Positions 609 to 24,108 of a DNA stretch of 47,772 nt are shown here, in pieces. The position numbers were made by a program, and so were the translations under genes. Numbering within the stretch: position 1 is the stretch's first letter; the number at the start of each line of letters is the position of its first letter. The notes below the pieces were generated by a model. It searched no databases, was not told where the DNA came from, and saw only the letters and a list, made by a program, of their open reading frames with translations. Source of the stretch: Sedimentisphaerales bacterium (GTDB lineage: Bacteria > Planctomycetota > Phycisphaerae > Sedimentisphaerales > Anaerobacaceae); NCBI GenBank assembly GCA_049644065.1, contig JBARRE010000118.1, positions 1-47,772 of the forward strand. Reading direction: 5' to 3'.

Positions 609-624
609 TGGCACATTGTTTGCT
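609..624 (+). promoter_or_regulatory. Sigma-54 (RpoN) -24/-12 promoter
   Basis: TGGCAC-attgt-TTGCT matches the consensus TGGCAC-N5-TTGCW exactly. It is on the + strand, about 234 nt upstream of the decaheme cytochrome start at 858. Confidence 0.6.
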
Positions 625-5011: not shown

Positions 5012-6070
5012 TCACTCCACGAGTTCAAACACCTGGATTCGTTTATTGAATGAGTCGGCAACGTAAATTCTGTTTCGATTATCGATGAAGATGCCTGCCG
5101 GCAACCAGAACTGCCCGGCCTGTGTTCCTTCCTGCCCGAAGGCCAAAAGTATCCGGCCCTGCTGGTCGAATACCTGCACATTTTCAAACTGTCTGTCTGT
5201 AACATAGATGTTGCCGAAACCATCCGTGGCAACGCCGCACGGATGGGCAAAGTTACCCGGCCGGTCTCCCTGCTGGCCGAACATTTGGAGGAACCTGTGT
5301 TCACGTGAAAATACCTGAATCCTGTAATTTAATGTGTCACTGACATACAATCTGCCGCTTTTATCCACCCACAAGTGTGTTGGAAAGTTGAACCTTCCGG
5401 ACCCCATACCTCTGGATCCGATTTGTTCGATGAACTTACCGCCTCTTGTAAATACCTCGATAGTATGGCCGACCGTATCTGCCACATACACTATCTCATC
5501 TTCCTGCGAATAGGCAATGCCGGACGGCCTTGTGAAGTGTTCACGTCCAAAAGAGAATATGAATTTTCCCTTTTTGTCAAAAACACACACTTTACGAAGT
5601 ATGCTATCGACAACATAGATCCTATTGCCTACTATTGTCAAACCGACCGGCTTGAGCAGTTTCTCCTGGCCAGCCAAGTCGGCGAATTGTTTATATGTGC
5701 GTTTGTTCAGATCGAAGACATGCACTGCCGCACCTGCGCTATCAGTAACAAACAATCTATCGCTCTGGTCAATAGCGACGGCGGAAGGGGCAACAAGAAC
5801 ACCGATTTTACTTTTGCCAAAGAGCAACTCACCCAAGCCCTGTGTCCACGATACTTTTGCTTTCAAGTCGGCTTCTGTCGATATCACTCCAAGATAAATT
5901 ATACGAGGCTTCTCCGGGGGGGCAGGCCAGGCAAGCTGTACATCAGGCCGTAAGGATAACTCGTCACGGTTACTACCACATCCATGGCAGAATGACAACA
6001 GTACAAGCGACCAAACGTATAATAACATAAAGACGAGATATTCTTTAGAGTATCTTTTTTTTGCTGCCAT
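5012..6070 (-). CDS. NHL-repeat six-bladed beta-propeller protein, exported (possible lipoprotein)
   Basis: It has six hYVxDxxNxRIQVF-type repeats, for example RIYVADSFNKRIQVFE, NIYVTDRQFENVQVFD and RLYVSDTLNYRIQVFS. The N terminus is hydrophobic with Cys residues (LLSFCHGCGS). It ends 8 nt before the next gene. Confidence 0.85.
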   Translation of the reverse strand: MAAKKRYSKEYLVFMLLYVWSLVLLSFCHGCGSNRDELSLRPDVQLAWPAPPEKPRIIYLGVISTEADLKAKVSWTQGLGELLFGKSKIGVLVAPSAVAIDQSDRLFVTDSAGAAVHVFDLNKRTYKQFADLAGQEKLLKPVGLTIVGNRIYVVDSILRKVCVFDKKGKFIFSFGREHFTRPSGIAYSQEDEIVYVADTVGHTIEVFTRGGKFIEQIGSRGMGSGRFNFPTHLWVDKSGRLYVSDTLNYRIQVFSREHRFLQMFGQQGDRPGNFAHPCGVATDGFGNIYVTDRQFENVQVFDQQGRILLAFGQEGTQAGQFWLPAGIFIDNRNRIYVADSFNKRIQVFELVE

Positions 6071-6090: not shown

Positions 6091-8169
6091 TTAGAAAAAG
6101 CGTTTTAGCTGAAAATATAGAAGACTGCTATCGATTTCATCGTTTCTGCGATCGAGTACGTTAAACTCGACGCCTACGAGTATACTCAGTTGACGAAAAT
6201 TATACTTTAATTCAGAGCTAATTTGAAATCCTCTTGTTATGCCGAACCTTGTGTCGTCTTCATCCCGATAGTCGGCACGGGCTGAAATACTGTACTCGTT
6301 AGTCAATCTACTGATAAACTCAGCACCACTTTTAAAGAGTACAACATCCCGCTCATCCGGTTCACTAAAATCAAGCCAGTGATTTATGACTCTCATACTA
6401 ACGCTTGTATTGCTGTTTACAGGCCAACTGTATCTGCCTTGTATTTTCTTGCTCGTTGAGGGAATCTGAGTCGAGTCCTCTTTGCTGTACTCGGCCTGTA
6501 AGAAGAGGCCTTTATAAAGATAATCTGTGCCTACTGTATTGACTGTGTACTCATCGGGAGTAATTTCCATGATCTTCGCGCTGACATCTTCCTCTTGCCG
6601 TCGATGGGCATAATACAAAGACATACCATTTTTAAACCGCTCCCTGATGGTAAAGTTCTGACGAAGTGTATCTTCCTGCCTGTCCGGCTCGATGAGGACT
6701 GTATAATCTACTAAAATTTCCTGATCATTGCTAATGTTGGGAAGTGTGGTTCCCGGAATTATAATTTCTAACTGCACCTGTCTGTTGATTTCTTCGATGG
6801 TGTAATCGTCACCCAGGGTATATGTGTATAATCCGGTGCTGTCTGTCACCACAATGCTCGATATGTTAATGTTTGTTCTGTTCAAGGTTACAGGTAGCGG
6901 ATCATTAACAGTATGTGATTCGTCCGTCACGATTCCTCCACTGGTGCCTGATTGTTTGTTCAAACTTGCCGTATATGTGCTTAGCAATATCCCCCAGGGA
7001 TTCTTTTTTTGGTAATTAAAAGCAAGAATACCGCCATATTGCTCAAAATCTCCTTGGATGTCAAAGTAGGTTTTTGGCGGGATGTAGTCTTTTGATGTAA
7101 AGTCAGTTCTTGACGCAAAAATGTTTGCTGTTGTAACAAGGCTTTCATATAACCTGTGCTCGAAGCCGGCTTGGCCGCGAACCTCTTTATTCCTGTCTGC
7201 ATCTCGTTTGGAGTCTGTGAGCCGCAGTTCATAATTGGTCAGGAAATCGTCGAAGTGCTGCAGTCTTAAGCGTTCATCCAACTGAATATTTTCGAAGTCA
7301 AATGAGCCGGATTGATCGACATAGTTAAAAAATGAATCGAGCCTGTGTTGTTCGTCGCCGCCGAATATCAAATCGTGCAACATTGTGTACCGATCAGTAT
7401 CTGTTTCTATTGATGCACCCACGCTTCGTTGCGAGACCAACGTTCTGTCGATGTCAATACTCAGGTGCGATAATTCACCAAAATCATGATTGACAGAATA
7501 TCTGAATCGCTCATCATCTCTTTCGAAAAAGTCTCTTTCGAGGGACGATAGTCCATCCTGGGCGGTTTCGCTGGCAGTGTACTGGAATATCATCGGCCAA
7601 TCCCTGGACCTCAGCGAAAGCGACGCTCCCCTGTTATGTCTTTCAGTTCTCAAAGACCCCAAAAACTGCCGGGGGATCAGTTCCTCCGACTTGCTCGCAT
7701 AAAAGGTCGTTGGATATGATTTTCCTCTCAAGAATTGAGTAAATATGCTGTAATCATTAAGTGATTCACCGTGCCTGTCGGACTCTTCATCCGAGTTTAT
7801 GCTTTGCTGGGCAAGGCCAAAACCAAGAATGGCGTTGTAAAACAGAAGGTCCGGATGATATATGTCGCCTTCAGTTTTGAGCCTTACTCTTTCCTCAAAT
7901 ACTGTCGTTTCGCTCTTGCGTTTATTTTCACTTGTTCCCTGTTCGTCGGTACGATTCTCAGCGACAAATTCCAGCTCACCACGAATTCCTTCGTGTCTTA
8001 TAAAAGGTTTTTGTTTGCCGCCAACATTGACATTGCAGCCGGCAAGAGCAACCGCACTTAAGGTGCAAAATGCAAAAGCCCAGCGGATTCTTCCGGCAAG
8101 TATCCGCTTGTTAGATTCGAGTATTGTCTCATTATACGGCTGCTTCTGCAATGTTCTCGGTTCCTTCAC
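6091..8169 (-). CDS. Putative outer-membrane beta-barrel protein (692 aa) with a lipobox-type signal
   Basis: The N terminus has ...LSAVALAGC (L-A-G-C lipobox). The sequence shows amphipathic alternating strands throughout. The C terminus is ...LLYFQLKRFF, an aromatic-terminal beta-signal typical of OMPs. I recognise no known enzymatic motif. Confidence 0.6.
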   Translation of the reverse strand: MKEPRTLQKQPYNETILESNKRILAGRIRWAFAFCTLSAVALAGCNVNVGGKQKPFIRHEGIRGELEFVAENRTDEQGTSENKRKSETTVFEERVRLKTEGDIYHPDLLFYNAILGFGLAQQSINSDEESDRHGESLNDYSIFTQFLRGKSYPTTFYASKSEELIPRQFLGSLRTERHNRGASLSLRSRDWPMIFQYTASETAQDGLSSLERDFFERDDERFRYSVNHDFGELSHLSIDIDRTLVSQRSVGASIETDTDRYTMLHDLIFGGDEQHRLDSFFNYVDQSGSFDFENIQLDERLRLQHFDDFLTNYELRLTDSKRDADRNKEVRGQAGFEHRLYESLVTTANIFASRTDFTSKDYIPPKTYFDIQGDFEQYGGILAFNYQKKNPWGILLSTYTASLNKQSGTSGGIVTDESHTVNDPLPVTLNRTNINISSIVVTDSTGLYTYTLGDDYTIEEINRQVQLEIIIPGTTLPNISNDQEILVDYTVLIEPDRQEDTLRQNFTIRERFKNGMSLYYAHRRQEEDVSAKIMEITPDEYTVNTVGTDYLYKGLFLQAEYSKEDSTQIPSTSKKIQGRYSWPVNSNTSVSMRVINHWLDFSEPDERDVVLFKSGAEFISRLTNEYSISARADYRDEDDTRFGITRGFQISSELKYNFRQLSILVGVEFNVLDRRNDEIDSSLLYFQLKRFF

Positions 8170-8183: not shown

Positions 8184-9326
8184 TTATTTCGATGTTTTAT
8201 TCCTGGCCAGGGAATTATCTATATCCGATATGTAACCTCGGATTGTCTTTGCCATCGATTCCGGGATTAAGCCGCCATTGAGAATTTTAACAAAACCCTC
8301 TCGGGCTTTTAAGAGTTGGCCGGTCCGGTAGAAGGCCATGCTGCTGTAATAGAGTTCAGCAATTTCTCTTGCCTGTTTGTCAGACTGGTTGTTATTCTCA
8401 AGCTGCTGTTCGTTCCTGTTTATAACGGAGTCGATCATTCCGAGTACGCGTACGATTTGTGCTCTCTCTTCGGCAGTGAAAGATCTACTGTCTTTGAACT
8501 TTCCAAGATATGCTCCGGCTTGCTGCAGCTCGCCCAGCTCGATTAATCTGCTGGTTTCCCGGAACACCTCAGATAAACTCTTGCTCTCGGGTAAAGTGCC
8601 AGATGCTGTTGGTCCTTGCTTGGGATAAATTTGTTCTTCCGGATCCTTCGCGGACTTAATATATTCTTGCGATGTTGCTTTGGCCACGTTTGCCCGGCCA
8701 AATCCATCGTTTGTCTCGGATGAGCTACCTTTTAAAAGCGCTTTGGCAGAACTTGCGTGAGCGTTGTGGCAGTCAGTACATGCAGATAATTGTTTTGGTA
8801 AATGTGCAGCTATTAATTCGATCGTGTCAATGTCATGGCATTGGTAGCAAAGTCCCGGTTCCGGTGCTATTAGCAGATGTTCGATTTTGCTTTTATGTGG
8901 ATTGTGGCAAAACAGGCACTGGCCAACCGCCACAGGCCCGTGAACAAATGATGCTGATGCAGTATAGTTAGTGTGACAATCGTAGCATAATTTTGGCACC
9001 GGGGCGGTTAAATACGTTTGGGAAGAAAAACTCCGTTGTTTGCGTTTGCCGTGACAAATGCTGCAGTCCTTGCGCGGCTCGTGTACATACCAGACCGGTG
9101 CCTGACCCATCTGTGCAAGCTCAGGAGAGTTTGGATCGAAAGATTCTCCCTGGAGGCCTTCCGGTCCCAGGGGTGGAACACCGTCAAATAAGAAGGTTAG
9201 AGCCTCATGGCGATCAACATCATCGCAGCTTACAAAAAATATGCCAAAAAAGACGAGCAGCATTAACCCGACTGATGCAGGTCTAATGCGAAATTTCATG
9301 ATGTAACGATTTTTAGAACCACACAT
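8184..9326 (-). CDS. Pentaheme c-type cytochrome, putative lipoprotein, with a C-terminal helical (TPR-like) module
   Basis: There are 5 CxxCH motifs: CSICH, CYDCH, CLFCH, CYQCH and CTDCH. The signal ends ...FFVSC. The likely true start is the internal MKFRIR. The C-terminal 58 aa (AELYYSSMAFYRTGQLLKAREGF...) also occurs, in two copies, in the protein encoded by the adjacent upstream gene (9409..11070). Confidence 0.85.
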   Translation of the reverse strand: MCGSKNRYIMKFRIRPASVGLMLLVFFGIFFVSCDDVDRHEALTFLFDGVPPLGPEGLQGESFDPNSPELAQMGQAPVWYVHEPRKDCSICHGKRKQRSFSSQTYLTAPVPKLCYDCHTNYTASASFVHGPVAVGQCLFCHNPHKSKIEHLLIAPEPGLCYQCHDIDTIELIAAHLPKQLSACTDCHNAHASSAKALLKGSSSETNDGFGRANVAKATSQEYIKSAKDPEEQIYPKQGPTASGTLPESKSLSEVFRETSRLIELGELQQAGAYLGKFKDSRSFTAEERAQIVRVLGMIDSVINRNEQQLENNNQSDKQAREIAELYYSSMAFYRTGQLLKAREGFVKILNGGLIPESMAKTIRGYISDIDNSLARNKTSK

Positions 9327-9408
9327 AACTATTAAATACAGAAGCTTAAAATATCTCTTGCCATCAGGCCTTCAAACTTAGCTTATATCATCTCACTATC
9401 TAATTTTA

Positions 9409-11070
9409 TCAAGGCCCGCTACTTTGTCTCTTGATCAAAGTTTTGTTGATATCCGCTAAGTAGTTTTCTATTGTCTTTGCCATTGCCGGCGGAATTAGGC
9501 CGCTTCTCAAGACCCTTGTCAAACCCTCCCGGGCTTTCTCGAGCTGACCGGTACGGTAAAATGCCATACTGCTGTAATATAGCTCTGCAATTCCCTGCTT
9601 GTGTTCATCCGTTGTCAGAACACTGTTGATATCTGTTAGGTAGCCTTGAATCATTTGTGCCGTTTGTGCAGGAAGCAGGCCGCTCTTCAAAACTTCGAGG
9701 AAACCATCTCGTGCTTGTTCAAGTTGACCGGCTTTATACAAGGCTATGCTTCTGTGATAGAGGTCAGCGGTTTTTCTCTGCGGCTCCCACTGTTGAGTGT
9801 CCGTTTTCTGAGGCTCGGGCGACTTCAATGCCGGAGCTTGAATAAGCTGTTGTTGTTGCTCAGGCTTGGGCTCAAACTTCTGAACAAACTCTTCCGGTTT
9901 GTCTATTACCTTGCCATTCGAAGGGAAACTGCCAAAGCCGTATACACTGACCTTGTTCGGGCCGTATTGATTTGTGACTAAAACTAAAAATTCTATATTC
10001 GCGCCTTCTACGGCGTATTGTTTGAAAAATTCTATGTTGTCGTAGTCCAGAACAATCTTCGTGGGCAGATTCATCATTCCCGGTTTATTGCCGGGCAGAC
10101 CGAAAAACAATAGGAGCTGGGCTTGCTCATTATATATTTTTGCAACTTCCGTCCCTGCGTCAACAATCCATATCCTATCTTCTTTATCTATGGCGATGCC
10201 CTTAGGCCTGGCGAACTCATCTATGTTCCTGCCCAATCTGCCGATAGTTCGTCTGAATGCTCCGGATCTGTCAAACTGTGTTATGCGTGCTCCGGCTTTG
10301 TCCGTAACATAAATGTTGCCCTGTCGATCAAGAGCCAGATCGCTAATGAGGGAGAATTCACCATTTTTCAACACCGCCAGAGGTTCTTCCTGTCCTTGTC
10401 CCTTACCTGTCTGTCCCAGGCGTGCTATCTCTCTGCCGGTAGCCTTGTCCATGACAACAATCCGGTTACTGGCAAAGTCAGTCACGTAGCATAGCGAACC
10501 ACGAACAACGACATCGATGGGATTAATCTTTGAATCCTTCCCCAGCATGGCACTAATGTTGTTGTCCCTATCAAATACAAATACGATGCCGGCCGTAGGA
10601 TCAGCTATGTATTTCGTACCATCATCATCGATATAAATATTAACCGGATTCATCAAACGCCGGTCTTTTGTCAGATAACCAAACGTGTGATTCCTGAGAT
10701 CAAGTACCTCCACCATTCTCTTGCCGACATCACATACATACAATTTGCCTTCGAATATCGCTACTCCGTACGGCGTCCTGATACCTTCTGCCTGTTCAGG
10801 TTCACCAAGTATGAACGTTTCGAAAGCACTTGTCTTAACTGCCCCGAGCTCCTCAGGTCCGGAGAAGGACTTGAGGAATTGTAGGCGCGGCGTCTCCGGG
10901 GCAGGAGGAAAGAAAACAGGCTTTGACTCCTGCTCCTGGATGTTAGCAGACCTGCACCCTGAAAAAAGGCACATCGCCCAGATAGCGGTTATATATGCTA
11001 ACCTGTTAATTAATACAGATTTGTGCATTCTCATGACCCTTATTTCGGCAATTTTCGAGGGGCAGGACAA
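9409..11070 (-). CDS. NHL-repeat beta-propeller protein with two copies of the C-terminal helical module; possible lipoprotein
   Basis: It has six NHL-like blades (KLYVCDVGKRMVEVLD, NIYVTDKAGARITQFD and others). The signal ends ...CLFSGC. The likely start is at M13 or M15 (11034 or 11028). After a Q/P/E-rich linker come two ~51-aa repeats (ADLYHRSIALYKAGQLEQARDGF... and AELYYSSMAFYRTGQLEKAREGL...). Confidence 0.85.
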   Translation of the reverse strand: MSCPSKIAEIRVMRMHKSVLINRLAYITAIWAMCLFSGCRSANIQEQESKPVFFPPAPETPRLQFLKSFSGPEELGAVKTSAFETFILGEPEQAEGIRTPYGVAIFEGKLYVCDVGKRMVEVLDLRNHTFGYLTKDRRLMNPVNIYIDDDGTKYIADPTAGIVFVFDRDNNISAMLGKDSKINPIDVVVRGSLCYVTDFASNRIVVMDKATGREIARLGQTGKGQGQEEPLAVLKNGEFSLISDLALDRQGNIYVTDKAGARITQFDRSGAFRRTIGRLGRNIDEFARPKGIAIDKEDRIWIVDAGTEVAKIYNEQAQLLLFFGLPGNKPGMMNLPTKIVLDYDNIEFFKQYAVEGANIEFLVLVTNQYGPNKVSVYGFGSFPSNGKVIDKPEEFVQKFEPKPEQQQQLIQAPALKSPEPQKTDTQQWEPQRKTADLYHRSIALYKAGQLEQARDGFLEVLKSGLLPAQTAQMIQGYLTDINSVLTTDEHKQGIAELYYSSMAFYRTGQLEKAREGLTRVLRSGLIPPAMAKTIENYLADINKTLIKRQSSGP

Positions 11071-11430
11071 ACAAAGTGTACGTCTTTTTGACCGATAGGA
11101 ACTTTTTTGTCTTCGCCGAGTACGTCAATCTTAAAAGTGCTTAGGATTGTATTTATAGATTTGAAAAGGCTACTTTCATTCTCCTGTTCTCAGCCGGTCT
11201 ATAACTTTAGATACTTGGCATCAATCTTCATGGCTAATATGCCTGAAACAGTGGTTTCGAGGAAGGTATTGTAGCGAATACGTGAAGCCTTATGTCAAGC
11301 GCATTTAAGCACCTGACATAAGACATATGAAAGCCTGAATATCTTCGGACGTTATCCCTGCTCATGTCATATGGACAGCAGGCTTTTGAGTATCAGTTGA
11401 AACGCCGATATCACACAGCTTCACACCTGA

Positions 11431-12009
11431 TTATTTCATGTGACACATGCGGCACAGTTCGGGCCCATGCTGGCTGCCGTAATCGTAGCCCCGCAACAGG
11501 CTATCACCGATGCCGGATGTATGAACGTCATGGCAACTGCCGCACTGGATCTTACTCTCCGGATCGAGCAGATCTTCCAGGATTGTTCCTCCAAGCGTGC
11601 TTGCTTCTGAAGGATCTTTCAGAGCTCCATCCTGGGTAGCCAGGGCGGAATCGTACACGAAAGAGATTGGGTGTGAACTTGCCAGTTCATCAGAACCAAA
11701 GCTGTGGTCCGGATTCATCCATGCGAAATTGGGATTGGCACCATCGTGGCAACTCAGGCATAGTTTGGAATTGCCGCTGGGCTGGCCGTCTGCAGTGCCC
11801 TGGAATGTATCGCTGGAATACATCACAAATGTTATAGTTGTTTCGTTGCCGTTCCACAAGGGTACGCCCGGTAACGCTTCTGCGTTGTGCGGCGTGTGAC
11901 ATCCATTGCAGCCAAACAAGTCCGAATGTGCCAATGCCATTACGACCGCCGGTGTTAACAAACCGACAAGGACCACCAGTAAACGTAGTTTCAAAAAATT
12001 CTTATTCAT
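11431..12009 (-). CDS. Small secreted tetraheme c-type cytochrome (192 aa), OmcS/OmcE-like motif pattern
   Basis: It has a signal peptide (...VVMALA) and 4 CxxCH motifs (CNGCH, CLSCH, CGSCH, CRMCH). The last motif is 2 residues from the C terminus. The mature N terminus is HSDLFGCNGCHTPHN. Six additional His residues are available as distal ligands. Confidence 0.9.
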   Translation of the reverse strand: MNKNFLKLRLLVVLVGLLTPAVVMALAHSDLFGCNGCHTPHNAEALPGVPLWNGNETTITFVMYSSDTFQGTADGQPSGNSKLCLSCHDGANPNFAWMNPDHSFGSDELASSHPISFVYDSALATQDGALKDPSEASTLGGTILEDLLDPESKIQCGSCHDVHTSGIGDSLLRGYDYGSQHGPELCRMCHMK

Positions 12010-12351
12010 AACCTCTTCTCCAATTTCGACCTAATGGCTCATTTTACTCATCATGAGCGGTAAGCAAAATCTCTATAGTAACAAACGGTTAATTCATTTC
12101 TTCGGGACCATGAAATATGCTAACGCAAACATACCTCCAAACTCATCAACCGGCCGTATCCATTATAATCAATTTCCGTGCGTAATTCAAGATTTATGAC
12201 TGGTCAGAAAAAAGTTTTTTCCTCAGTCAGGTCATCAATTCCAGGATCCTCTTTCTATGCGCCTGAAGCCCATTGCCCTGGCCCATCATTCTCATTTACG
12301 AGAATAAGGGATGGTAAAATTACTATCGATGAGAAAATTTACTGCTCGCGA

Positions 12352-13374
12352 CTAATCAAAAATAAGCGTTAAGGCTTTGTAGTATGTCTCCATTGCTTTA
12401 TCATTCTGCTGCCTGGTCCGATAAATCTTTCCGAGTTCAAATAAAGCACGTGCGGATTTGGGATCGAGTGTTGTTGCCTCAAGAAGAAGTTTTTCAGCCG
12501 CGTCGAGTTCGCCCATTTGACGTTTTGCCCAGCCGGATATCAATAACAGTCTTGCTTTATCGAGACGGCTGGTGACACTCAGCGATTCTGTTATATCTAA
12601 AGCTGCTTTACTGCGGCCGGCTCTGCAGAAAAGCTCACCGAGCTCCAAAGCTGCTTCGGGGGAATTAGGATCGAGTTCCCTGGCTTTTTGGATTTCCGCA
12701 ACAGCCGATTCAAGGCGGCCTTTTTGCTCGAGTATTTTTGCCATTTGCAGATGCCTTTTGAGACGGGCGGTAATCGTGTCATTGGCGACAGTCTTGACGC
12801 GACCTGCGTCTTCCGGGGCCTTTTTCTGAGCAAGGCCGAGTGCCTGGTTCACATAAGCCCGGACCACCGGGGCAAAGTCGTATCCATGTCCCGCTTTTAT
12901 ACAAAGGACCTTATCATTTGTATCGGAGACGACAACAGTGGGAACAGCGATGATTCCAAACTTGCCCCAAAGCTTGTACTCCGAATCCAACAGGACATGG
13001 ACATTTTTTGCCGGGCCTTTTTTACTTGAAGGAAAATCTAAACCGTTAGGATCATTGACTGCGAAAACGGTCTCCAGACGTTCTGTATTTGTCCCGAGTT
13101 GACGGATAATCTCTTGAACGTCCTCTACGGCTCGGGCCGAGCGTTTATGCCCGGGGGACAAGAACACTACTATTAGAGCTTTGCTCTGGTTGTGCTTGTA
13201 GGTAAACACCTGTCCGGTTATGGTAGTGCCGGAGAATTCCGTCATTATATCGCCGACGGCAAACGTGTGCCGGTCAGCTTGTGCTGTAATGCACCATAGA
13301 GATTGTGCTATTACCAGCACATAGACCGCATAAGTGGCAATTCTACTTCTGACTCCCATTGTTGTCCCTTTCAA
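12352..13374 (-). CDS. Exported thioredoxin-fold (TlpA/ResA-like) domain lacking CxxC, fused to TPR repeats
   Basis: It has a signal peptide (...CITAQA). A redoxin-like segment, KALIVVFLSPGHKRSARAVEDV, has GHKR where the CxxC normally sits. The C-terminal half has TPR-like repeats (ELDPNSPEAALELGELF..., TLDPKSARALFELGKIY...). Confidence 0.65.
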   Translation of the reverse strand: MKGTTMGVRSRIATYAVYVLVIAQSLWCITAQADRHTFAVGDIMTEFSGTTITGQVFTYKHNQSKALIVVFLSPGHKRSARAVEDVQEIIRQLGTNTERLETVFAVNDPNGLDFPSSKKGPAKNVHVLLDSEYKLWGKFGIIAVPTVVVSDTNDKVLCIKAGHGYDFAPVVRAYVNQALGLAQKKAPEDAGRVKTVANDTITARLKRHLQMAKILEQKGRLESAVAEIQKARELDPNSPEAALELGELFCRAGRSKAALDITESLSVTSRLDKARLLLISGWAKRQMGELDAAEKLLLEATTLDPKSARALFELGKIYRTRQQNDKAMETYYKALTLIFD

Positions 13375-13385
13375 CCATCTCTTTC

Positions 13386-14729
13386 CTACTCGGCAGGCCA
13401 GGAAGGATAATCGACGGGATCCTTCCTATCGTAATCTTTCGGCAGGTGACAACCAGGTGCGCAGGAGCCGCCTGTCTGCTTTTTAGTAAATCCAATCGGT
13501 AGTGACCAGGTCCCAAATGTAACACTCTTACGAATGTGCTTGGGCAAGTTGCTGGCGTGTGTCGCATGGCATGAACGACATGTTCGGCCTCTCCGCTCCT
13601 TATTGACATGCAAATAGTGTAGATTCAAGCCGCCGTTCCTGAAATCGGTCAGGTCGGATGTTTCTTTTGTCATGACCAGGTCTTCGGAGTGACAGGCGAA
13701 GCAAAGTTCGTAATTCTCCTTGCGGAAGGGCGCATAAAACTGGGAGGGGTACTCCTTTGCCAAAAGGCGGAAATGCTCGCTGCCGTGTGTGACATGGCAT
13801 CCGCTGCAGTCGTTTTCCGCAACGGGACCGTGTAGAAATTCCTTGCCTTCAAGTTCATCGCTAAAGGCAGGCAGAACCTCGTCTTGGCCCAGATCGTGCG
13901 GCTTGTCATGGCAGGTCAGGCAAAGGCTTTTCGCATCCTTTTGCAGCAGAAACTTCACTGTCGAGGCATGCGGAGTATGACATTGCATGCAGCCGTCGAT
14001 ATCGCCCACGATGCTGTGCTGGTACGTGGAGTTTTCAGCGATTTTCTGGATATCCTTATGACAAGTGTAGCATAGAAAGGGCGCGAGGTTCTTGACCATC
14101 TTTGAGTTGCCCGCTCCGTGCGGATCATGACAGCCGATACAGTCGCTTTTTACAGGCTCGTGTACAAAATCGTATGTCTTCAACTCGTTTTTCATGATGA
14201 CATGGCAAGAGAAACAAAGCTCCGCTTGCTCAGCAACCAATAAGTCTTTATGGTCAGAGCTGTGCATCTCGTGACAGACAGTACATTCGCCGACGGCTGT
14301 CGGCCCATGCAGAAACGAGAGTCCTTCTGTAATTTTATGGCAGTTGTCGCAAAGAGCGGCGACCGTTTTTTCTTGAATCAGGAATTTGTTATCACTGCTG
14401 TGCGGGTCATGGCATTGCATGCAATCGCCTGTCTTCAGAGGTTCGTGAACGATCTTCTTGGCGGCTTGCTCCAAATGGCAGTATTCGCAAAGGTCTCTGC
14501 CTTTCCGCTCGAACTGCCAGGTGTGCTCTTCAGGTTTCAGTGGTTTGTGGCACGAAGTGCAGTCGCCGAGGCTGACTGGGCCGTGGACGTGTGCTTTTTG
14601 GCCGTACTCCGCATGACATTCTTCTGTAACGCATGTCTTTTGCAGCGAAGTCGGTTTTTCCACCGCGAAGCCGTTTGAGATTAATACACAGATTAACAAA
14701 ACTGCCGACTTATAAACTCTGTCTAACAT
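13386..14729 (-). CDS. Periplasmic multiheme c-type cytochrome (13 CxxCH + CX4CH + CX3CH)
   Basis: It has a signal peptide. The CxxCH motifs are CTSCH, CEYCH, CMQCH, CDNCH, CTVCH, CFSCH, CIGCH, CYTCH, CMQCH, CLTCH, CSGCH, CFACH and CRSCH, plus CVTEECH and CAPGCH. The repeated HGPxxxGxCxxCH units are typical of c3/c7-type polymers. Confidence 0.9.
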   Translation of the reverse strand: MLDRVYKSAVLLICVLISNGFAVEKPTSLQKTCVTEECHAEYGQKAHVHGPVSLGDCTSCHKPLKPEEHTWQFERKGRDLCEYCHLEQAAKKIVHEPLKTGDCMQCHDPHSSDNKFLIQEKTVAALCDNCHKITEGLSFLHGPTAVGECTVCHEMHSSDHKDLLVAEQAELCFSCHVIMKNELKTYDFVHEPVKSDCIGCHDPHGAGNSKMVKNLAPFLCYTCHKDIQKIAENSTYQHSIVGDIDGCMQCHTPHASTVKFLLQKDAKSLCLTCHDKPHDLGQDEVLPAFSDELEGKEFLHGPVAENDCSGCHVTHGSEHFRLLAKEYPSQFYAPFRKENYELCFACHSEDLVMTKETSDLTDFRNGGLNLHYLHVNKERRGRTCRSCHATHASNLPKHIRKSVTFGTWSLPIGFTKKQTGGSCAPGCHLPKDYDRKDPVDYPSWPAE

Positions 14730-14824: not shown

Positions 14825-15994
14825 CTACCTTGAAGACGCCTGCGTGCGTCTGTAAAGCAGTACTAACATTCCGGACTTTATTCTATAATGGATGGGCTTG
14901 TTTAACTCTAAAACGGCCTGGTGATTTGTGCTGTTTTGCTTAATCGTTGCAATAACAGCAGGGCGCAACAGCCTCTCAGATCCATTTGTATACTCGGTCT
15001 TAATAATTGCCCCGTCCATAACCTTTTCAACGCTGAAAGAGTATTCCATGTCTGCAAAAGGATAAGGGCGGCCAAGGACGGTCCTTTCTGCACGTTTCTT
15101 ACCTTTTTTAGACATAAGTAACCACGGCTTAGTTCCGCTTGCTACGACAAGAATGTGTTTTCCTTCAGCCCCGCGAAGGTCAAAATCACTGAATCTCATA
15201 CGCAAGGGAAGTTTTGTTTCTTCGTGCGGAGATGACGGAAATTTTGCCCAAAGCCATTGCTCGATTGTTTTTTTCCCGTCGTCAATGGCAACTTTAACAG
15301 CAGGATTGACCGGCTTTTGCGATTGACTGACTACCTTCTTTGTCTCAGTATCAATCGAATAATGCGGCAGATATTCTACGATCGTTACTCTGTATTTAGA
15401 CCTTGGTATACTTATTGTTTCTGCAATTTTAGCTACGCACTCGAACGGCTGGCTACCGTCCTCAGGTAAGATCGAAAGAATGCCGACCGCTCTGGAATGT
15501 GTAAGTCCTCGCATCAGCTTCTCAACGCCATTAGTATCATGGAGCCTTCTTATCGTAACACCTCCGATGCTGGAAGATATAGATTGCCTCGCAGGATCAC
15601 CCGAATGGAGCCACATCTCTTGCTTCATATTCTTGCCATTGATTAATAATTTTGCGGCAATTCCTCCGCTGGGATGCTTGACCACATTCGTTTCCCACTT
15701 CAGATCGGGGACATAATCTTCAAGCCTGATCTCGATGGGCGTACCCTTTATCGGCAGGACAGTGTCAAGCTTTTGAGGCTGGGTCTCATCGGAAACAATC
15801 AGCGGGAAACGCAGCCCTTCTCCGTCCAGGCGCATCTTGATGACAATTTCCCATGGTCCTCCAAGAAATGAGTGGTGCGGTCCTGCGGGGGCAGCCAGCG
15901 CCCGATCGACCAAAGTTAGGTTTGCAAATGCTGCTGTGGCGACAATACCCACGACAGCATTCCTAACAAATTTTTTATGTGCCATTGATCCCAT
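14825..15994 (-). CDS. Exported protein of unknown function (389 aa)
   Basis: It has a signal peptide (...DRALAAPAG) and no heme motif. It is tightly packed, 14 nt downstream of the NapC-type gene. The C-terminal segment LELNKPIHYRIKSGMLVLLYRR weakly recalls the ResB/Ccs1 periplasmic VNxPLxYxG motif (speculative). Confidence 0.55.
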   Translation of the reverse strand: MGSMAHKKFVRNAVVGIVATAAFANLTLVDRALAAPAGPHHSFLGGPWEIVIKMRLDGEGLRFPLIVSDETQPQKLDTVLPIKGTPIEIRLEDYVPDLKWETNVVKHPSGGIAAKLLINGKNMKQEMWLHSGDPARQSISSSIGGVTIRRLHDTNGVEKLMRGLTHSRAVGILSILPEDGSQPFECVAKIAETISIPRSKYRVTIVEYLPHYSIDTETKKVVSQSQKPVNPAVKVAIDDGKKTIEQWLWAKFPSSPHEETKLPLRMRFSDFDLRGAEGKHILVVASGTKPWLLMSKKGKKRAERTVLGRPYPFADMEYSFSVEKVMDGAIIKTEYTNGSERLLRPAVIATIKQNSTNHQAVLELNKPIHYRIKSGMLVLLYRRTQASSR

Positions 15995-16008: not shown

Positions 16009-17388
16009 CTATCTTGCTCCACTGACTATTTCATCTGCTCGGAGAAGCATTGCTTCGGTGTATTTGAAATTATGAACTCCCCAGCTTCCATCTGCTAATA
16101 CTGATTCGAGAATCGATTGGGCTTGTTCAATGCTCTGGTTTAACCGCGAGGCTGTTTGTCCGCTTGTTGTATTCCGAGCCCTGCTCTTGAGTTGATCCAG
16201 CTTGCGGCTGACTTGTTCGTGCATTGCTTTAATCTTATCCTGCCAGAAAGGTATATACTGTTGACCGGTTCCTTCCTCGTGGCACTTGTCGCAGGCATGA
16301 GGTACGGCTTTGGCAACTGTTCCGTGACTATCCAGGACGCCGGATTTTTGTGCCACCCGCTCGATATGACATCCGGTGCATTCCACGTGTGTGAGAAACA
16401 TCGGGCTGAGAACCCGATCCGTCTGCTGGGTCTGCATCGGATGCTGGGTTGAGTAGATAGTACGCTGGATCTGGTGAGTATCACTGTGACAGTTCTGACA
16501 ATCCATCATGACCGAAATGGATGCCACTTCCGTCTGGCCATGTGACACTTGTCCGTGGCACGCGAAACACTCGACCTTTTCATGATTCGTGTGGGTTTTA
16601 TGCAGTTCCACGCTGTCGGCATGCTGTTCCTTGCTGAAACTGTGGCAATTCAAGCACACGTTATCGTTTACCTTGCTTGTCTTGTGAATATCTTTTTTGT
16701 GACACGAATCTTCACAGCTTGCTTTGTAGGAAACAAACTCGGTATGGTTAATTGTTACCAGGCCTCGCTTAATGATCCTGTCGGGCACCTCGTGGCAATC
16801 TGTACAGCTCGTCTTAATCGCACTGCTGTCGGCCTCGCTGCCCTTGAGGAAGTGGCAGGTATAGCAGGCATCTTTGTTAACGGTGAAGTGCTGGTTTCCT
16901 TCGAAGTGGTTGTGGCAAGTGCCGCATGAAATTTTTATCCCATGGACGTCTTTGTCGATGTGATTTTCGTGGGTGAATTTGATGCCGGCGTAGTCGATTT
17001 CCGTTGAGACAAGCTCTTCATTGCTATGACACTCGGACCTCAGGCAGGAAGCGTCCTGAACGGTGGCATTTGGCTTTGTGCCAACCCGGCCAACTATGCA
17101 ATCGACCGCCTGGGCCAGCCCGTTAATTTTCCCTTTTACGTAACCGGTAAAGCCCGGCTGTAAATGACAGTCAAGGCAGTTGACCTTCGAGTGTTCGGAA
17201 CGTTTCCAACTGTCATAATGGTCATTCATGATGTGGCAGGAATTGCAAAAGCCCGGTTGTCCTGTAACAACAATTGCCCCTGCGGCAAAAAAGGATGCGC
17301 ATAAAACAAGAAGTAATATCTTTACTGGCCACTTCATTTGCCAGAAGATATTCCATCCGAATACAAATATCGCTTTGATATAATTCAC
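16009..17388 (-). CDS. Membrane-anchored NapC/NirT(CymA)-family multiheme cytochrome, extended (10 CxxCH + CX4CH + CX3CH); putative quinol dehydrogenase
   Basis: An N-terminal TM helix is followed by the family hallmark CNSCHIM...Y..W..S.H....C.DCH. Further motifs are CGTCH, CYTCH, CTDCH, CLNCH, CFACH, CQNCH, CTGCH and CDKCH, plus CLRSECH and CEDSCH. The C-terminal helix contains GSWGVHNF. An alternative start is M18 at 17337. Confidence 0.85.
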   Translation of the reverse strand: MNYIKAIFVFGWNIFWQMKWPVKILLLVLCASFFAAGAIVVTGQPGFCNSCHIMNDHYDSWKRSEHSKVNCLDCHLQPGFTGYVKGKINGLAQAVDCIVGRVGTKPNATVQDASCLRSECHSNEELVSTEIDYAGIKFTHENHIDKDVHGIKISCGTCHNHFEGNQHFTVNKDACYTCHFLKGSEADSSAIKTSCTDCHEVPDRIIKRGLVTINHTEFVSYKASCEDSCHKKDIHKTSKVNDNVCLNCHSFSKEQHADSVELHKTHTNHEKVECFACHGQVSHGQTEVASISVMMDCQNCHSDTHQIQRTIYSTQHPMQTQQTDRVLSPMFLTHVECTGCHIERVAQKSGVLDSHGTVAKAVPHACDKCHEEGTGQQYIPFWQDKIKAMHEQVSRKLDQLKSRARNTTSGQTASRLNQSIEQAQSILESVLADGSWGVHNFKYTEAMLLRADEIVSGAR

Positions 17389-18654: not shown

Positions 18655-18663
18655 TGAGCACTC

Positions 18664-19254
18664 CTATTGGATCGATACCATTCCGGCAAAGCCCATAAAT
18701 GTCATGGCAAGCACGCCGGTGACGATCATTGCTATAGCTACACCCTCAAAGCATTTCGGGACATGGCTGTATCTCATTTTCTGTCTCAAACCGGCTAAAA
18801 GCACAATGGCAACAGCCCAGCCGATCCCTGCACCCAGGCCAAAGCCTATAGACTGCATAAAACTGTAGTTGCGAATGATCATGAACAGAGATGCGCCGAG
18901 AATTGCGCAGTTTACGGTTATCAAAGGTAAAAATATGCCGAGTGCAAAGTACAGCTTCGGACTGAACCGTTCGACAAACATTTCAACTAATTGTACGAAG
19001 GCGGCGATGACCGCTATGAAGACAATAAATTGCAGATGACCGAGACTCAATGGCATCAGGACAAAGTGGTAAATTACGTAATTTATAATTGTTGTCATAA
19101 TCATCACGAAAATAACGGCGGTGCCCAGTCCCAGTGATGTCTTTATCTGGCCTGAGCACGCGATAAACGAGCACATGCCGAGAAAATTCGTCAGCAGGAT
19201 ATTGTTCGTAAATATCGCCGCGATGAATATCACCCATGCCGATGTCTCACTCAT
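18664..19254 (-). CDS. nqrE: Na+-translocating NADH:quinone oxidoreductase subunit E
   Basis: This polytopic membrane protein has the conserved FLGMC..., ALGIFLPLITVNCAILG and GLG.GIGW blocks of NqrE/RnfA. Its start overlaps the nqrD stop (TAATG). Confidence 0.85.
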   Translation of the reverse strand: MSETSAWVIFIAAIFTNNILLTNFLGMCSFIACSGQIKTSLGLGTAVIFVMIMTTIINYVIYHFVLMPLSLGHLQFIVFIAVIAAFVQLVEMFVERFSPKLYFALGIFLPLITVNCAILGASLFMIIRNYSFMQSIGFGLGAGIGWAVAIVLLAGLRQKMRYSHVPKCFEGVAIAMIVTGVLAMTFMGFAGMVSIQ

Positions 19255-19919: not shown

Positions 19920-19924
19920 TATTA

Positions 19925-23879: not shown

Positions 23880-24108
23880 ATGTTATCATTCTGACTCTAT
23901 TGCCAATTCAAGTTTTCACTTGATCTTTGTCTATTAGATTATTATACATAAAGACTATAATGGAAAACTGCAGAAAAGTAAAGGCAAAGCCCAACAAAGA
24001 TCGCTCACACTTCCATAGAGACATGGCTTGCAGGGCAAAGTTTCTCATTTGTAAGAAAAGCAAAAAAAACTCAACTTTCTTCTATAATATTTCCAATTTA
24101 GGATAAGA

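What the first reader, a model, noticed from the sequence alone, without database searches (positions are those of the whole stretch)
11431..12009. Small tetraheme with an OmcS/OmcE-like motif pattern: candidate filament-forming (nanowire) cytochrome
The 192-aa secreted protein has four CxxCH motifs and six extra His residues, enough for bis-His ligation of all hemes. Several features echo what I recall of Geobacter OmcS:
- the mature N terminus HSDLFGCNGCHTPHN versus FHSGGVAECEGCHTMHN in OmcS;
- the internal KLCLSCHDG and IQCGSCHDVH motifs;
- the final heme motif lying 2 residues from the C terminus (ELCRMCHMK*, versus ALCNKCHAKD* in OmcS).

The size and heme count are those of tetraheme filament subunits such as OmcE. 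The gene stands alone between two ~350-nt spacers, consistent with its own strong expression signal. It is surrounded by propeller, barrel and TPR-like genes of the kind reported as nanowire assembly factors.
Basis: partly seen in the sequence, partly recalled or inferred. Interest (0 to 1): 0.7.

Follow-up and report, generated by a model that had tools for sequence, protein, structure and literature searches.

The report
OmcE-type cytochrome nanowire subunit, Planctomycetota
This small four-haem protein is a clear relative of OmcE, the building block of a known bacterial "cytochrome nanowire", and it sits in the matching helper-gene cluster, so it probably forms conductive filaments in a bacterial phylum where none have been reported.

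Summary
ORF 11431-12009(-) encodes a 192-aa Sec-secreted protein with four CxxCH motifs and 10 His.

Its best solved-structure matches are the two OmcE filaments seen by cryo-EM. These are G. sulfurreducens 7TFS (E 9e-12; profile 3e-13) and D. soudanensis 9YUQ (E 1e-10). The alignments reach the C terminus. OmcS is not significant (E 3.3).

Exactly eight His are invariant in close homologs, and they are the eight haem ligands of OmcE. The chain ends two residues after the last CxxCH, as in 102 of 110 family members.

The neighbours match the published minimal omcE cluster:
- two NHL propellers (E 8e-50 and 7e-31 to the Geobacter one);
- multihaem cytochromes (E 3e-66);
- a 692-aa barrel (hhalign 92% to the Geobacter-type barrel family).

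The same gene order recurs in most of 80 genomes from at least 14 phyla.

Differences: a much shorter N-terminal arm, and an 11-12-haem protein (3354-5003) whose N terminus is a second OmcE module. That protein is a possible filament tip or anchor.

Polymerisation is inferred, not shown; my structure model was unusable (pLDDT 37).

Verdict: new member of a known kind.

The parts
11431..12009 (-). OmcE-family tetrahaem c-type cytochrome, 192-aa precursor; candidate nanowire subunit
   Evidence: ORF. PDB matches: 7tfs_A E 9.2e-12 and 9yuq_N E 1.2e-10; profile search 3.2e-13 and 1.5e-12. Eight invariant His.
11929..12009 (-). Predicted Sec signal peptide (residues 1-27, cleavage ALA|HSD). His28 would then be the first residue of the mature protein.
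   Evidence: Read from the sequence. The pattern is conserved in homologs. No signal-peptide predictor was available.
11896..11910 (-). Haem motif 1, CNGCH. It is followed by TPH41, giving CxxCHxxH as in OmcE and OmcS.
   Evidence: 96 of 110 family members have CxxCHxxH here.
11746..11760 (-). Haem motif 2, CLSCH, within KLCLSCHDG
   Evidence: KLC[LM]SCHDG was the most conserved family stretch and was used as the scan pattern.
11530..11544 (-). Haem motif 3, CGSCH, followed by DVH163
11440..11454 (-). Haem motif 4, CRMCH, two residues from the C terminus
   Evidence: 102 of 110 small family members end exactly 2 aa after the last motif.
12162..12190 (-). Sigma-70-like promoter candidate, TTGAAT-17-TATAAT, about 150 nt upstream of the ATG
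   Evidence: 10 of 12 matches; site count no higher than shuffles. The hexamers recur as TTGACT and TATAAT in L008. Weak evidence.
9409..11070 (-). NHL beta-propeller protein, with a lipobox-like LFSGC and a C-terminal TPR-like tail. It is the partner gene immediately downstream of the subunit gene. The true start is probably the ATG near 11034.
   Evidence: Pfam NHL. 27% identity over 334 aa and E 7e-31 to the Geobacter omcE-cluster propeller. A homolog follows the small cytochrome in most loci.
8184..9326 (-). Pentahaem cytochrome (5 CxxCH) with the same TPR-like C-terminal tail
   Evidence: A homolog is present in 59 of 83 loci.
6091..8169 (-). Large predicted outer-membrane beta-barrel of 692 aa, with an LAGC lipobox and a C-terminal ...KRFF. 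Putative secretion or anchor pore.
   Evidence: No Pfam match. The family profile finds it in 62 of 80 loci. hhalign to the Geobacter-type omcE-cluster barrels gives Prob 91.9%, E 6.8e-7 over 496 columns. The AF2 model is nearly all long beta hairpins but has pLDDT 54. Foldseek hits are only outer-membrane barrels, at TM about 0.2.
5012..6070 (-). Second NHL beta-propeller, 352 aa
   Evidence: 31% identity over 327 aa and E 8e-50 to the Geobacter omcE-cluster propeller, including the N-terminal WPxxPExPRI motif.
3354..5003 (-). 549-aa cytochrome with 11 CxxCH plus 1 CX3CH. Residues 1-195 are a second OmcE module, followed by about 350 aa carrying 7-8 more haems. Candidate filament tip, base or adapter.
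   Evidence: 36% identity to ORF192, E 6e-29. 7tfs E 3.3e-19 and 9yuq E 1.7e-18. 48 orthologs keep all 8 module His.
12352..13374 (-). TPR protein of 340 aa, immediately upstream. It is syntenic only in Planctomycetota relatives.
13386..14729 (-). Multihaem cytochrome of 447 aa (13 CxxCH), ortholog of the first cytochrome of the Geobacter omcE cluster
   Evidence: 35% identity over 322 aa, E 3e-66. NCBIfam DmsE-family hit at 2.6e-41, below the cut-off.
14825..15994 (-). Secreted protein of unknown function, 389 aa, syntenic in Planctomycetota relatives
   Evidence: No family hit. Present in L004-L006, L008 and L010.
16009..17388 (-). NapC/NirT-type membrane-anchored multihaem quinol dehydrogenase; the likely entry point for electrons
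   Evidence: Pfam Cytochrom_NNT E 2.7e-9 and NCBIfam NrfH hit 1e-15, below the cut-off. An N-terminal hydrophobic helix is visible.

Best explanation
**What it is.** ORF 11431-12009(-) encodes the major subunit of an OmcE-type extracellular cytochrome filament ('insulated nanowire') in a Planctomycetota bacterium of the Phycisphaerae/Sedimentisphaerales group.

**Proposed mechanism**
1. The precursor is exported by Sec and cleaved after Ala27.
2. Four c-type haems are attached in the periplasm. All become bis-His ligated: the proximal ligands are H38, H88, H160 and H190, and the distal ligands are H28, H41, H113 and H163.
3. As in OmcE, one distal His completes a haem of the neighbouring subunit. 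Subunits therefore stack head to tail into a continuous haem chain. The invariant two-residue C-terminal tail leaves haem 4 free to abut haem 1 of the next subunit.
4. The co-encoded 692-aa outer-membrane barrel and the two NHL propeller proteins export, assemble or anchor the polymer.
5. Electrons arrive from the quinone pool through the NapC-type cytochrome (16009-17388) and the periplasmic multihaem cytochromes (13386-14729 and 8184-9326).

**Shown here:** homology, ligand conservation, cluster homology and synteny.

**Inferred:** polymerisation, extracellular location, the roles of the barrel and propellers, and the electron route.
For: **Homology to solved filaments**
- The top two solved-structure matches are the two OmcE filaments. 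7tfs_A: E 9.2e-12, query 34-192 against chain 51-232. 9yuq_N: E 1.2e-10. Both reach the C terminus.
- A family profile gives 3.2e-13 and 1.5e-12.
- 7TFS is identified as OmcE in PMC12954529. 9YUQ matches the D. soudanensis OmcE described in bioRxiv 10.1101/2025.10.22.684050.

**Haem ligands and C terminus**
- Exactly eight His are invariant in 30 homologs.
- They align with the only eight His of D. soudanensis OmcE.
- 102 of 110 small family members end 2 aa after the last CxxCH.

**Cluster homology with Geobacter**
- Propellers: E 8e-50 and 7e-31.
- Multihaem cytochrome: E 3e-66.
- Barrel families: hhalign Prob 91.9%.
- The preprint defines the minimal omcE cluster as 2 multihaem cytochromes, 2 propeller lipoproteins, OmcE and a large barrel. 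It uses a nearby barrel and propeller as its criterion for nanowire-competent homologs.

**Synteny**
- Of 80 GTDB loci, 72 carry the propeller, 62 the barrel and 48 the fused cytochrome.
- The full 10-gene order is shared with L004, L005 and L006, and partly with L008 and L010.
Against: - No direct evidence of polymerisation or of export.
- The AF2 monomer model was unusable (pLDDT 36.7), so neither the fold nor the interface could be checked.
- The N-terminal arm is much shorter than in the solved filaments. His28 lies 6 residues before Cys34, against 20 in G. sulfurreducens and 18 in D. soudanensis OmcE. If the arm forms the inter-subunit contact, the geometry must differ.
- In one complete Phycisphaerales genome, an 87%-identical homolog has only the propeller nearby. 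No barrel lies within 10 kb (L003).
- The preprint itself warns that OmcE-like tetrahaems are widespread and need not all polymerise.
- Barrel homology is remote: BLASTP E 0.16 and profile against single sequence E 0.013.
Confidence: 0.6

Rival explanations
1. It is a soluble periplasmic tetrahaem shuttle, working like cytochrome c3, c7 or STC. It carries electrons from the NapC-type quinol dehydrogenase to an outer-membrane porin-cytochrome conduit built from the barrel and the other multihaem cytochromes, and it never polymerises.
For: - The protein is small and has only a Sec signal.
- Pfam Cytochrome_C7 scores exactly at its cut-off (24.8 bits), on residues 151-190 only.
- The homolog in L003 lacks a nearby barrel.
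- The OmcE-like superfamily is very large, with 3044 clusters at 50% identity. The preprint notes that many members may not be nanowires.
Against: - The full-length best matches are filament subunits, not c3 or c7 carriers.
- The c3 and c7 hits are local and at or below threshold.
- The two-residue C-terminal tail is rigidly conserved, and all eight OmcE ligands are kept.
- The gene sits at the head of a barrel-and-propeller cluster in most loci. This fits a structural exported subunit better than a shuttle.
Confidence: 0.22
2. It is the extracellular or surface partner of a 1:1 porin-cytochrome complex, arranged like MtrCAB. The 692-aa barrel sheathes a periplasmic multihaem cytochrome, and the OmcE-like protein docks on the outside as a monomer or short oligomer.
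For: - The barrel is about the size of MtrB.
- Two multihaem cytochromes flank it.
- The window also encodes an OmcA/MtrC-family decahaem cytochrome at 858-3131.
Against: - The barrel has no MtrB/PioB or any other Pfam match, even at E <= 10.
- Its only detectable relatives outside its own family are the barrels of Geobacter omcE clusters, and OmcE there is a micrometre-long polymer.
- Nothing in the 192-aa sequence suggests a membrane or lipid anchor.
Confidence: 0.13
3. The real filament-forming or filament-nucleating protein of this cluster is the 549-aa OmcE-module protein (3354-5003), and the 192-aa protein is an accessory paralog.
For: The OmcE module of the 549-aa protein is closer to OmcE (E 3.3e-19, against 9.2e-12 for ORF192). 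It also keeps the long HDLS N-terminal arm.
Against: - A 350-aa haem-rich extension follows its fourth haem. The family's free two-residue C-terminal tail is therefore lost, which argues against it being the repeating unit.
- In other phyla the small standalone gene carries the long arm and heads the cluster.
Confidence: 0.05

Closest known systems
OmcE of Geobacter sulfurreducens (PDB 7TFS) and of Desulfuromonas soudanensis WTL (DSOUD_2954; most likely PDB 9YUQ): tetrahaem 'insulated' cytochrome nanowire subunits
   Same: - Significant sequence homology running to the C terminus.
- Four CxxCH motifs in the same order.
- The same four extra His: an N-terminal His, CxxCHxxH, DHP/SHP and CxxCHxxH.
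- The same two-residue C-terminal tail (CHKK, CHSK, CHMK).
- A Sec signal peptide.
- A gene preceded by a long spacer: 342 nt here, about 580 nt in Geobacter L001.
- Homologous NHL propellers, multihaem cytochrome and large barrel nearby.
   Different: - Only about 31% identity.
- The mature protein is about 165 aa, against about 200 aa.
- The spacing from the N-terminal His to the first Cys is 6 residues, against 20 and 18.
- The central loops are shorter.
- Gene order differs: here subunit, propeller, cytochrome, barrel, propeller, fused cytochrome; in Geobacter ResB, CcsB, cytochrome, cytochrome, propeller, OmcE, barrel.
- No glycosyltransferase block follows the cluster.
- The host phylum, Planctomycetota, is not among the five phyla listed in the 2025 preprint.
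OmcS of G. sulfurreducens (PDB 6EF8): hexahaem nanowire subunit
   Same: - The N-terminal motif is similar: xHSxxxxxCxxCHTxHN. His-to-Cys spacing is 7 in OmcS and 6 here.
- A haem motif lies close to the C terminus.
- According to the literature, OmcS and OmcE share haem packing and inter-subunit His ligation (PMC9473688, PMC12203936).
   Different: - No significant full-length similarity (E 3.3).
- Six haems and 407 aa, against four haems and 165 aa.
- The resemblance is at motif level. It may reflect convergence or very deep ancestry.
Small OmcE-like tetrahaem genes in the same cluster type in Bacteroidota, Ignavibacteriota, Calditrichota, Gemmatimonadota, Verrucomicrobiota, Pseudomonadota and other phyla (loci L013-L083)
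   Same: - 40-50% identity.
- The same cluster order.
- The same 2-aa C-terminal tail.
- The same eight His.
   Different: These proteins have a 13-14-residue arm (HDFSxxxWxxxGEIC). The Planctomycetota group has a 2-6-residue arm (AHSDLFGC). None of them has been characterised, as far as I could find.
D. ferrophilus DFE_0448-0451 and DFE_0461-0465 cytochrome/NHL-propeller clusters (FeGenie 'DFE' iron-reduction markers)
   Same: By description, these clusters hold multihaem cytochromes and NHL beta-propellers. 'DFE variants' have been reported in Phycisphaerae MAGs (bioRxiv 10.1101/2022.03.26.485925; PMC9769857).
   Different: This is a lead from the literature, not a test.

Membership tests
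OmcE-family cytochrome nanowire subunit | Significant sequence similarity to a solved OmcE filament subunit, running to the C terminus | tested here: met
   7tfs_A: E 9.2e-12, query 34-192 against chain 51-232. 9yuq_N: E 1.2e-10. Profile search: 3.2e-13 and 1.5e-12. The first six mature residues (28-33) lie outside these alignments.
OmcE-family cytochrome nanowire subunit | Four CxxCH motifs plus four further conserved His that give bis-His ligation of all haems | tested here: met
   H28, H41, H113 and H163 are invariant, as are the four motif His. They align with the eight His of D. soudanensis OmcE. The preprint names these features as the conserved ones.
OmcE-family cytochrome nanowire subunit | Chain ends directly after haem 4 (two residues) | tested here: met
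   The protein ends CHMK*. OmcE ends CHKK* and the D. soudanensis protein CHSK*. 102 of 110 family members do the same.
OmcE-family cytochrome nanowire subunit | A large outer-membrane beta-barrel gene and a beta-propeller lipoprotein gene nearby (the criterion Petersen et al. 2025 use for nanowire-competent homologs) | tested here: met
   Propellers: E 8e-50 and 7e-31. Barrel: hhalign Prob 91.9% to Geobacter-type barrels. The barrel fold itself is only weakly supported.
OmcE-family cytochrome nanowire subunit | Long N-terminal arm carrying the KHDLS His about 18-20 residues before haem 1 | tested here: not met
   The spacing here is 6 residues (AHSDLFGC). Most other phyla have 13-14 and Geobacter has 20. 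The His itself is kept. Arm length varies across the family, so this may not be a strict requirement.
OmcE-family cytochrome nanowire subunit | Alternating stacked and T-shaped haem chain, with one haem completed by a His of the adjacent subunit | not testable with these tools
   The AF2 monomer has pLDDT 36.7. No multimer or haem-aware prediction was available. The OmcE structure paper (PMC9357133) is not held.
OmcE-family cytochrome nanowire subunit | Forms extracellular micrometre-long filaments | not testable with these tools
   Needs an experiment.
OmcS/OmcT hexahaem nanowire family | Sequence similarity to OmcS and six haem motifs | tested here: not met
   6ef8_A: E 3.3 with no significant stretch. 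The protein has four motifs. Only the N-terminal motif resembles OmcS.
Archaeal tetrahaem filament subunits (PcECN 8E5F, AvECN 8E5G) | Sequence similarity | tested here: not met
   Neither appears among the PDB matches, even at E <= 10.
Periplasmic cytochrome c3/c7 carriers | Full-domain match above the Pfam gathering score | tested here: inconclusive
   Cytochrome_C7 scores 24.8 bits, equal to its cut-off, on residues 151-190 only. Cytochrom_c3_2 scores 18.8 against a cut-off of 25. These are local haem-motif matches.
MtrB/PioB-type porin of porin-cytochrome conduits (asked of the 692-aa neighbour) | Match to the MtrB_PioB family | tested here: not met
   No such hit in Pfam, even at E <= 10.

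The most novel reading that the evidence does not exclude
This widespread cluster type encodes both the repeating nanowire subunit (the 192-aa OmcE-like protein) and a dedicated end piece. The end piece is the conserved 11-12-haem protein at 3354-5003.

Its N-terminal OmcE module keeps all eight ligands, plus a ninth conserved His at position 204. That module could dock onto one end of the filament like a normal subunit, while the 7-8-haem extension forms either the mineral-contacting tip or the cell-proximal adapter to the barrel.

This would answer the question posed in the 2025 D. soudanensis preprint about how OmcE filaments are initiated, terminated or tipped. The authors found 'no such candidate' in Desulfuromonadia omcE operons.

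It would also mean that OmcE-type nanowires occur in at least 14 bacterial phyla, including Planctomycetota and Bacteroidota.
Probability: 0.3. Interest if true: 0.75.

Novelty: new member of a known kind. Interest (0 to 1): 0.52.

Why it matters
Only two bacterial OmcE filaments have been solved, both from Desulfuromonadia. The most recent survey I could read lists OmcE-cluster homologs in five phyla.

This locus places a complete OmcE-type cluster in Planctomycetota (the Phycisphaerae/Sedimentisphaerales group). These are abundant sediment heterotrophs that are not known as electroactive.

The same cluster appears in Bacteroidota, Ignavibacteriota, Calditrichota, Gemmatimonadota, Verrucomicrobiota and other phyla. 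If these proteins polymerise, long-range extracellular electron transfer by cytochrome wires would be far more widespread in anoxic sediments than culture work suggests.

The cluster also offers two natural experiments for the assembly mechanism:
- a subunit with a minimal N-terminal arm;
- a co-encoded OmcE-module fusion protein that could be the missing tip or anchor.

Tried and rejected
1. **AF2 model of the 192-aa protein.** Built with a 30-sequence alignment, it gave pLDDT 36.7. It was too poor for Foldseek, so no structural comparison of the cytochrome was made.
2. **AF2 model of the barrel.** It gave pLDDT 54. Foldseek returned only outer-membrane barrels (TonB-dependent transporters), but at TM about 0.2. 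This supports the class only, not a specific family.
3. **Barrel homology by direct comparison.** BLASTP against the Geobacter barrel gave E 0.16. A family profile against the single sequence gave E 0.013. Only profile-profile comparison reached 92%.
4. **The OmcE structure paper.** PMC9357133 is not held. Reviews say only that haem 2 of OmcE takes a His from the adjacent subunit. I therefore could not assign which of H28, H41, H113 or H163 crosses the interface.
5. **Conserved regulatory elements in the spacers.**
   - Rfam found nothing.
   - No intrinsic terminator follows the gene, and promoter-like sites are at chance frequency.
   - No sigma-54 site lies upstream of the gene on its own strand.
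   - Spacer alignments across five relatives show only the ribosome-binding site and, in one relative, the -35 and -10 hexamers.
6. **OmcS family membership.** Rejected (E 3.3).
7. **Archaeal filament families.** Rejected (no hit).
Full report
**1.

The minus-strand ORF 11431..12009 encodes 192 aa:

MNKNFLKLRLLVVLVGLLTPAVVMALA|HSDLFGCNGCHTPHN...KLCLSCHDG...SSHPISFVYD...IQCGSCHDVH...ELCRMCHMK*

- It has four CxxCH motifs and ten His.
- The N terminus looks like a Sec signal peptide with an ALA|H cleavage site. I read this by eye; no predictor was available.
- The flanking spacers are 342 nt and 360 nt.
6EF8 begins FHSGGVAECEGCHTMHNSLGG and carries LCNKCHA at 399-405 of 407.

**2. What the protein is**

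Pfam and NCBIfam recognise only the generic 'doubled CXXCH' domain. A search of all PDB sequences was more informative.

| PDB chain | Identity | E-value | Aligned region |
|---|---|---|---|
| 7tfs_A | OmcE filament, G. sulfurreducens | 9.2e-12 | query 34-192 against chain 51-232, reaching both C termini |
| 9yuq_N | 218 aa, 16 chains in the entry | 1.2e-10 | query 34-192 against chain 45-218 |
| 6ef8 | OmcS | 3.3 | not significant |

- 7TFS is identified as the OmcE filament in PMC12954529.
- 9YUQ fits the bundled D. soudanensis OmcE filament of bioRxiv 10.1101/2025.10.22.684050.
- A profile built from 30 close homologs raises the two OmcE matches to 3.2e-13 and 1.5e-12.
- The archaeal tetrahaem filament subunits are absent from the matches.

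In those 30 homologs (73-94% identical), exactly eight His are invariant: H28, H38, H41, H88, H113, H160, H163 and H190. H102 and H181 vary.

I rebuilt the OmcE sequences from the HMMER alignments. D. soudanensis OmcE has only eight His, in the order KHD, CxxCH, TPH, CxxCH, DHP, CxxCH, DVH, CxxCH. These align one-to-one with the eight invariant His here. The preprint names the same eight positions as the conserved features of OmcE homologs.

The chain ends two residues after haem motif 4, as in both solved OmcE proteins. Among 110 small OmcE-like ORFs collected from related loci, 102 end the same way.

**3. The neighbourhood is an OmcE-type cluster**

According to the preprint, the minimal Desulfuromonadia omcE cluster 'always' encodes two multihaem cytochromes, two beta-propeller lipoproteins, OmcE and a large beta-barrel. 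A nearby barrel and propeller are the authors' criterion for nanowire-competent homologs.

Here, reading along the minus strand:

| Coordinates | Product |
|---|---|
| 16009-17388 | NapC/NirT-type multihaem quinol dehydrogenase |
| 14825-15994 | unknown secreted protein |
| 13386-14729 | cytochrome with 13 CxxCH motifs |
| 12352-13374 | TPR protein |
| 11431-12009 | the OmcE-like gene |
| 9409-11070 | NHL propeller with a TPR-like tail |
| 8184-9326 | pentahaem cytochrome |
| 6091-8169 | 692-aa protein with no Pfam match, ending ...KRFF |
| 5012-6070 | NHL propeller |
| 3354-5003 | 549-aa cytochrome with 11 CxxCH plus one CX3CH |

I fetched the G. sulfurreducens omcE locus (L001) and five further Geobacter-type loci (L084-L088), then compared proteins.

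- The 352-aa propeller is 31% identical over 327 aa to the Geobacter cluster propeller (E 8e-50). The match includes the non-repeat N-terminal WPxxPExPRI motif.
- The 553-aa propeller gives E 7e-31.
- The 447-aa cytochrome is 35% identical over 322 aa to the first Geobacter cluster cytochrome (E 3e-66). The match includes its distinctive C-terminal region.
- The barrels are not similar by BLASTP (E 0.16).
- A profile of 57 relatives of the 692-aa protein ranks the Geobacter barrel as the first hit that is not a family member (E 0.013).
- Profile-profile alignment of the two barrel families gives Prob 91.9%, E 6.8e-7 over 496 columns.
- An AF2 model of the 692-aa protein is of low confidence (pLDDT 54). 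It consists almost entirely of about 26 long beta strands in hairpins.
- Foldseek returns only outer-membrane barrels, at TM about 0.2. I take this as weak support for the barrel class only.

**4. Distribution and synteny**

A scan of one genome per GTDB species with the family alignment found more than 558 relatives.

- The closest (62-76% identical) are MAGs labelled Phycisphaerales, Sedimentisphaerales, Phycisphaerae and Pirellulales. The window therefore most likely comes from a Planctomycetota bacterium of the Phycisphaerae group.
- At 40-50% identity there are loci from Bacteroidota, Ignavibacteriota/Chlorobiota, Calditrichota, Gemmatimonadota, Verrucomicrobiota, Sumerlaeota, Zixibacteria, Myxococcota, Spirochaetota, Deferribacterota, Desulfobacterota, Bdellovibrionota and Pseudomonadota.

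Searching the ORFs of the 80 kept loci with the window's proteins gave these counts:

| Cluster component | Loci with a homolog (of 80) |
|---|---|
| NHL propeller | 72 |
| Barrel | 62 |
| 549-aa-type cytochrome | 48 |

Many of the remaining loci are cut short by contig ends.

The recurrent order is: small OmcE-like gene, propeller, small multihaem cytochrome, barrel, sometimes a 447-type cytochrome, propeller, 549-type cytochrome.

- L004, L005 and L006 share the window's entire ten-gene order. L008 and L010 share the part they cover.
- One counter-example: in the complete genome CP070747 (L003), an 87%-identical homolog has only the propeller beside it.

Planctomycetota is not among the five phyla listed for OmcE-cluster homologs in the preprint. 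A full-text search for cytochrome nanowires together with Planctomycetota found nothing.

A 2022 preprint does report that Phycisphaerae MAGs carry FeGenie 'DFE variant' cytochrome genes. Those D. ferrophilus clusters contain NHL propellers and multihaem cytochromes. They may be the same cluster type, but I could not test this.

**5. How this protein differs from OmcE**

Identity to Geobacter-type OmcE is about 31%. The main structural difference is the N-terminal arm, measured as the spacing from the N-terminal His to the first haem Cys.

| Protein or group | Spacing (residues) |
|---|---|
| This protein (AHSDLFGC) | 6 |
| Other Planctomycetota relatives | 2-6 |
| Most other phyla (HDFSxxxWxxxGEIC) | 13-14 |
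| D. soudanensis OmcE | 18 |
| G. sulfurreducens OmcE | 20 |
| OmcS | 7 |

Reviews state that OmcE and OmcS both complete one haem with a His from the adjacent subunit (PMC9473688). For OmcE that haem is haem 2 (PMC12203936). I could not find out which His does this. All four candidates are conserved here, but the effect of the short arm on the interface is unknown.

**6. A second OmcE module in the cluster**

Residues 1-195 of the 549-aa protein are 36% identical to ORF192 (E 6e-29). They match OmcE even better than ORF192 does: 7tfs E 3.3e-19 and 9yuq E 1.7e-18, alignable from the signal peptide and including the long SPHDLS arm.

- About 350 further residues follow, carrying seven CxxCH motifs and one CX3CH.
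- In 48 orthologs, all eight His of the module are at least 96% conserved.
- A ninth His (H204), just after the module, is 98% conserved.

The preprint's Discussion asks what terminates or tips OmcE filaments. [quoted passage not shown] The 549-aa protein is such a candidate in this cluster type.

Its extension blocks the otherwise invariant free C-terminal tail. It could therefore occupy only one end of a polymer. This is a hypothesis and was not tested.

**7. Mechanism proposed, with status**

| Step | Status |
|---|---|
| Sec export | inferred from the sequence |
| Attachment of four haems | inferred from the motifs |
| Bis-His ligation by the eight conserved His | inferred from homology with solved structures |
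| Head-to-tail polymerisation with one inter-subunit His | inferred from family membership and cluster context; about 0.6 |
| Export or anchoring through the barrel, helped by the propellers | a hypothesis in the literature too |
| Electron supply from quinol via the NapC-type cytochrome and periplasmic multihaem cytochromes | inferred from gene content |

The rest of the window fits a haem-hungry respiratory island. It encodes:
- an NQR/RNF-like complex (17554-23041);
- siroheme-dependent haem biosynthesis genes (23400-25500 and 29776-34875);
- a CcsA-like cytochrome c assembly protein (33482-34363);
- a histidine kinase with a sigma-54 response regulator (26208-29501);
- an OmcA/MtrC-family decahaem gene (858-3131), preceded by a perfect sigma-54 promoter match at 609-624.

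**8. Rival explanations**

- **Soluble periplasmic tetrahaem shuttle, about 0.22.** This is the main alternative. The family is large (3044 clusters at 50% identity), not all members need polymerise, and L003 lacks the barrel.
- **Surface partner of a porin-cytochrome complex, about 0.13.** The barrel shows no MtrB/PioB similarity.
- **The 549-aa protein is the true repeating unit, about 0.05.**

**9. Verdict**

- This is a new, divergent member of a known kind in a phylum where it has not been reported.
- It has two features worth follow-up: the minimal N-terminal arm, and the co-encoded fusion of an OmcE module to further haems.

Noticed in passing
window 3354-5003 (-): The 549-aa cytochrome (11 CxxCH plus 1 CX3CH) starts with a complete OmcE-like module. 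That module is closer to OmcE than the flagged gene is, and all eight ligand His plus H204 are conserved in 48 orthologs across phyla. It is a possible filament tip, stopper or anchor.
   Followed up: partly
window 8184-9326 (-) and 9409-11070 (-): The pentahaem cytochrome and the NHL propeller share a TPR-like C-terminal region of about 150 aa (35% identity, E 9e-23). Its last 45 residues or so are nearly identical (IAELYYSSMAFYRTGQL.KAREG...GLIP..MAKTI). This may be a common docking or assembly tail. Most homologs of both proteins in non-Planctomycetota loci are shorter (roughly 190-290 aa and 350-410 aa), so it may be specific to this lineage.
   Followed up: partly
window 609-624 (+), upstream of 858-3131 (+): There is a perfect sigma-54 promoter consensus (TGGCACATTGTTTGCT) 234 nt before an OmcA/MtrC-family decahaem cytochrome gene. 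A sigma-54 response regulator and a histidine kinase lie at 26208-29501.
   Followed up: no
window 23400-25500 and 29776-34875: These are genes of the siroheme-dependent (alternative) haem biosynthesis route: two NirD/L-like AhbA/B, a CobA-HemD fusion, two radical-SAM enzymes and HemA. A CcsA-like cytochrome c assembly gene is also there. All sit next to the cytochrome island. For comparison, ResB-CcsB sit directly upstream of the Geobacter omcE cluster.
   Followed up: no
window 17554-23041 (-): A six-gene NQR/RNF-like complex lies immediately upstream of the NapC-type cytochrome, on the same strand. The first subunit carries a 4Fe-4S dicluster, like RnfC, and the last is an NqrF-like Fer2/FAD/NAD protein. 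This is a hybrid-looking composition.
   Followed up: no
window 14825-15994 (-): This 389-aa secreted protein matches no family in Pfam or NCBIfam. It is strictly syntenic between the NapC-type and the 13-CxxCH cytochromes in five Planctomycetota relatives (E 1e-107 to 1e-177).
   Followed up: no
L015, L019, L022, L027, L029, L034, L040, L054, L069, L078 (related loci): Many clusters in other phyla carry two to four tandem or dispersed small OmcE-like paralogs. 12 of 110 small ORFs have five haem motifs, matching the '5-haem OmcE-like' proteins mentioned in the 2025 preprint.
   Followed up: no
L003 (CP070747.1, complete Phycisphaerales genome) 8511-11620: Here an 87%-identical homolog sits with only the NHL propeller upstream and a prepilin-type N-methylation-domain protein downstream. 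No barrel or multihaem cytochromes lie within 10 kb.
   Followed up: no
window 6091-8169 (-), residues about 410-491: The barrel has an inserted segment that gives a sub-threshold NCBIfam hit to a phage tail-tube family (E 1.3e-8, 34.6 bits against a cut-off of 60). AF2 models it as short strands separate from the long hairpins. It may be a plug or an extracellular domain. Two database homologs carry a Pfam accession (PF27730) that is absent from the Pfam copy searched here.
   Followed up: no
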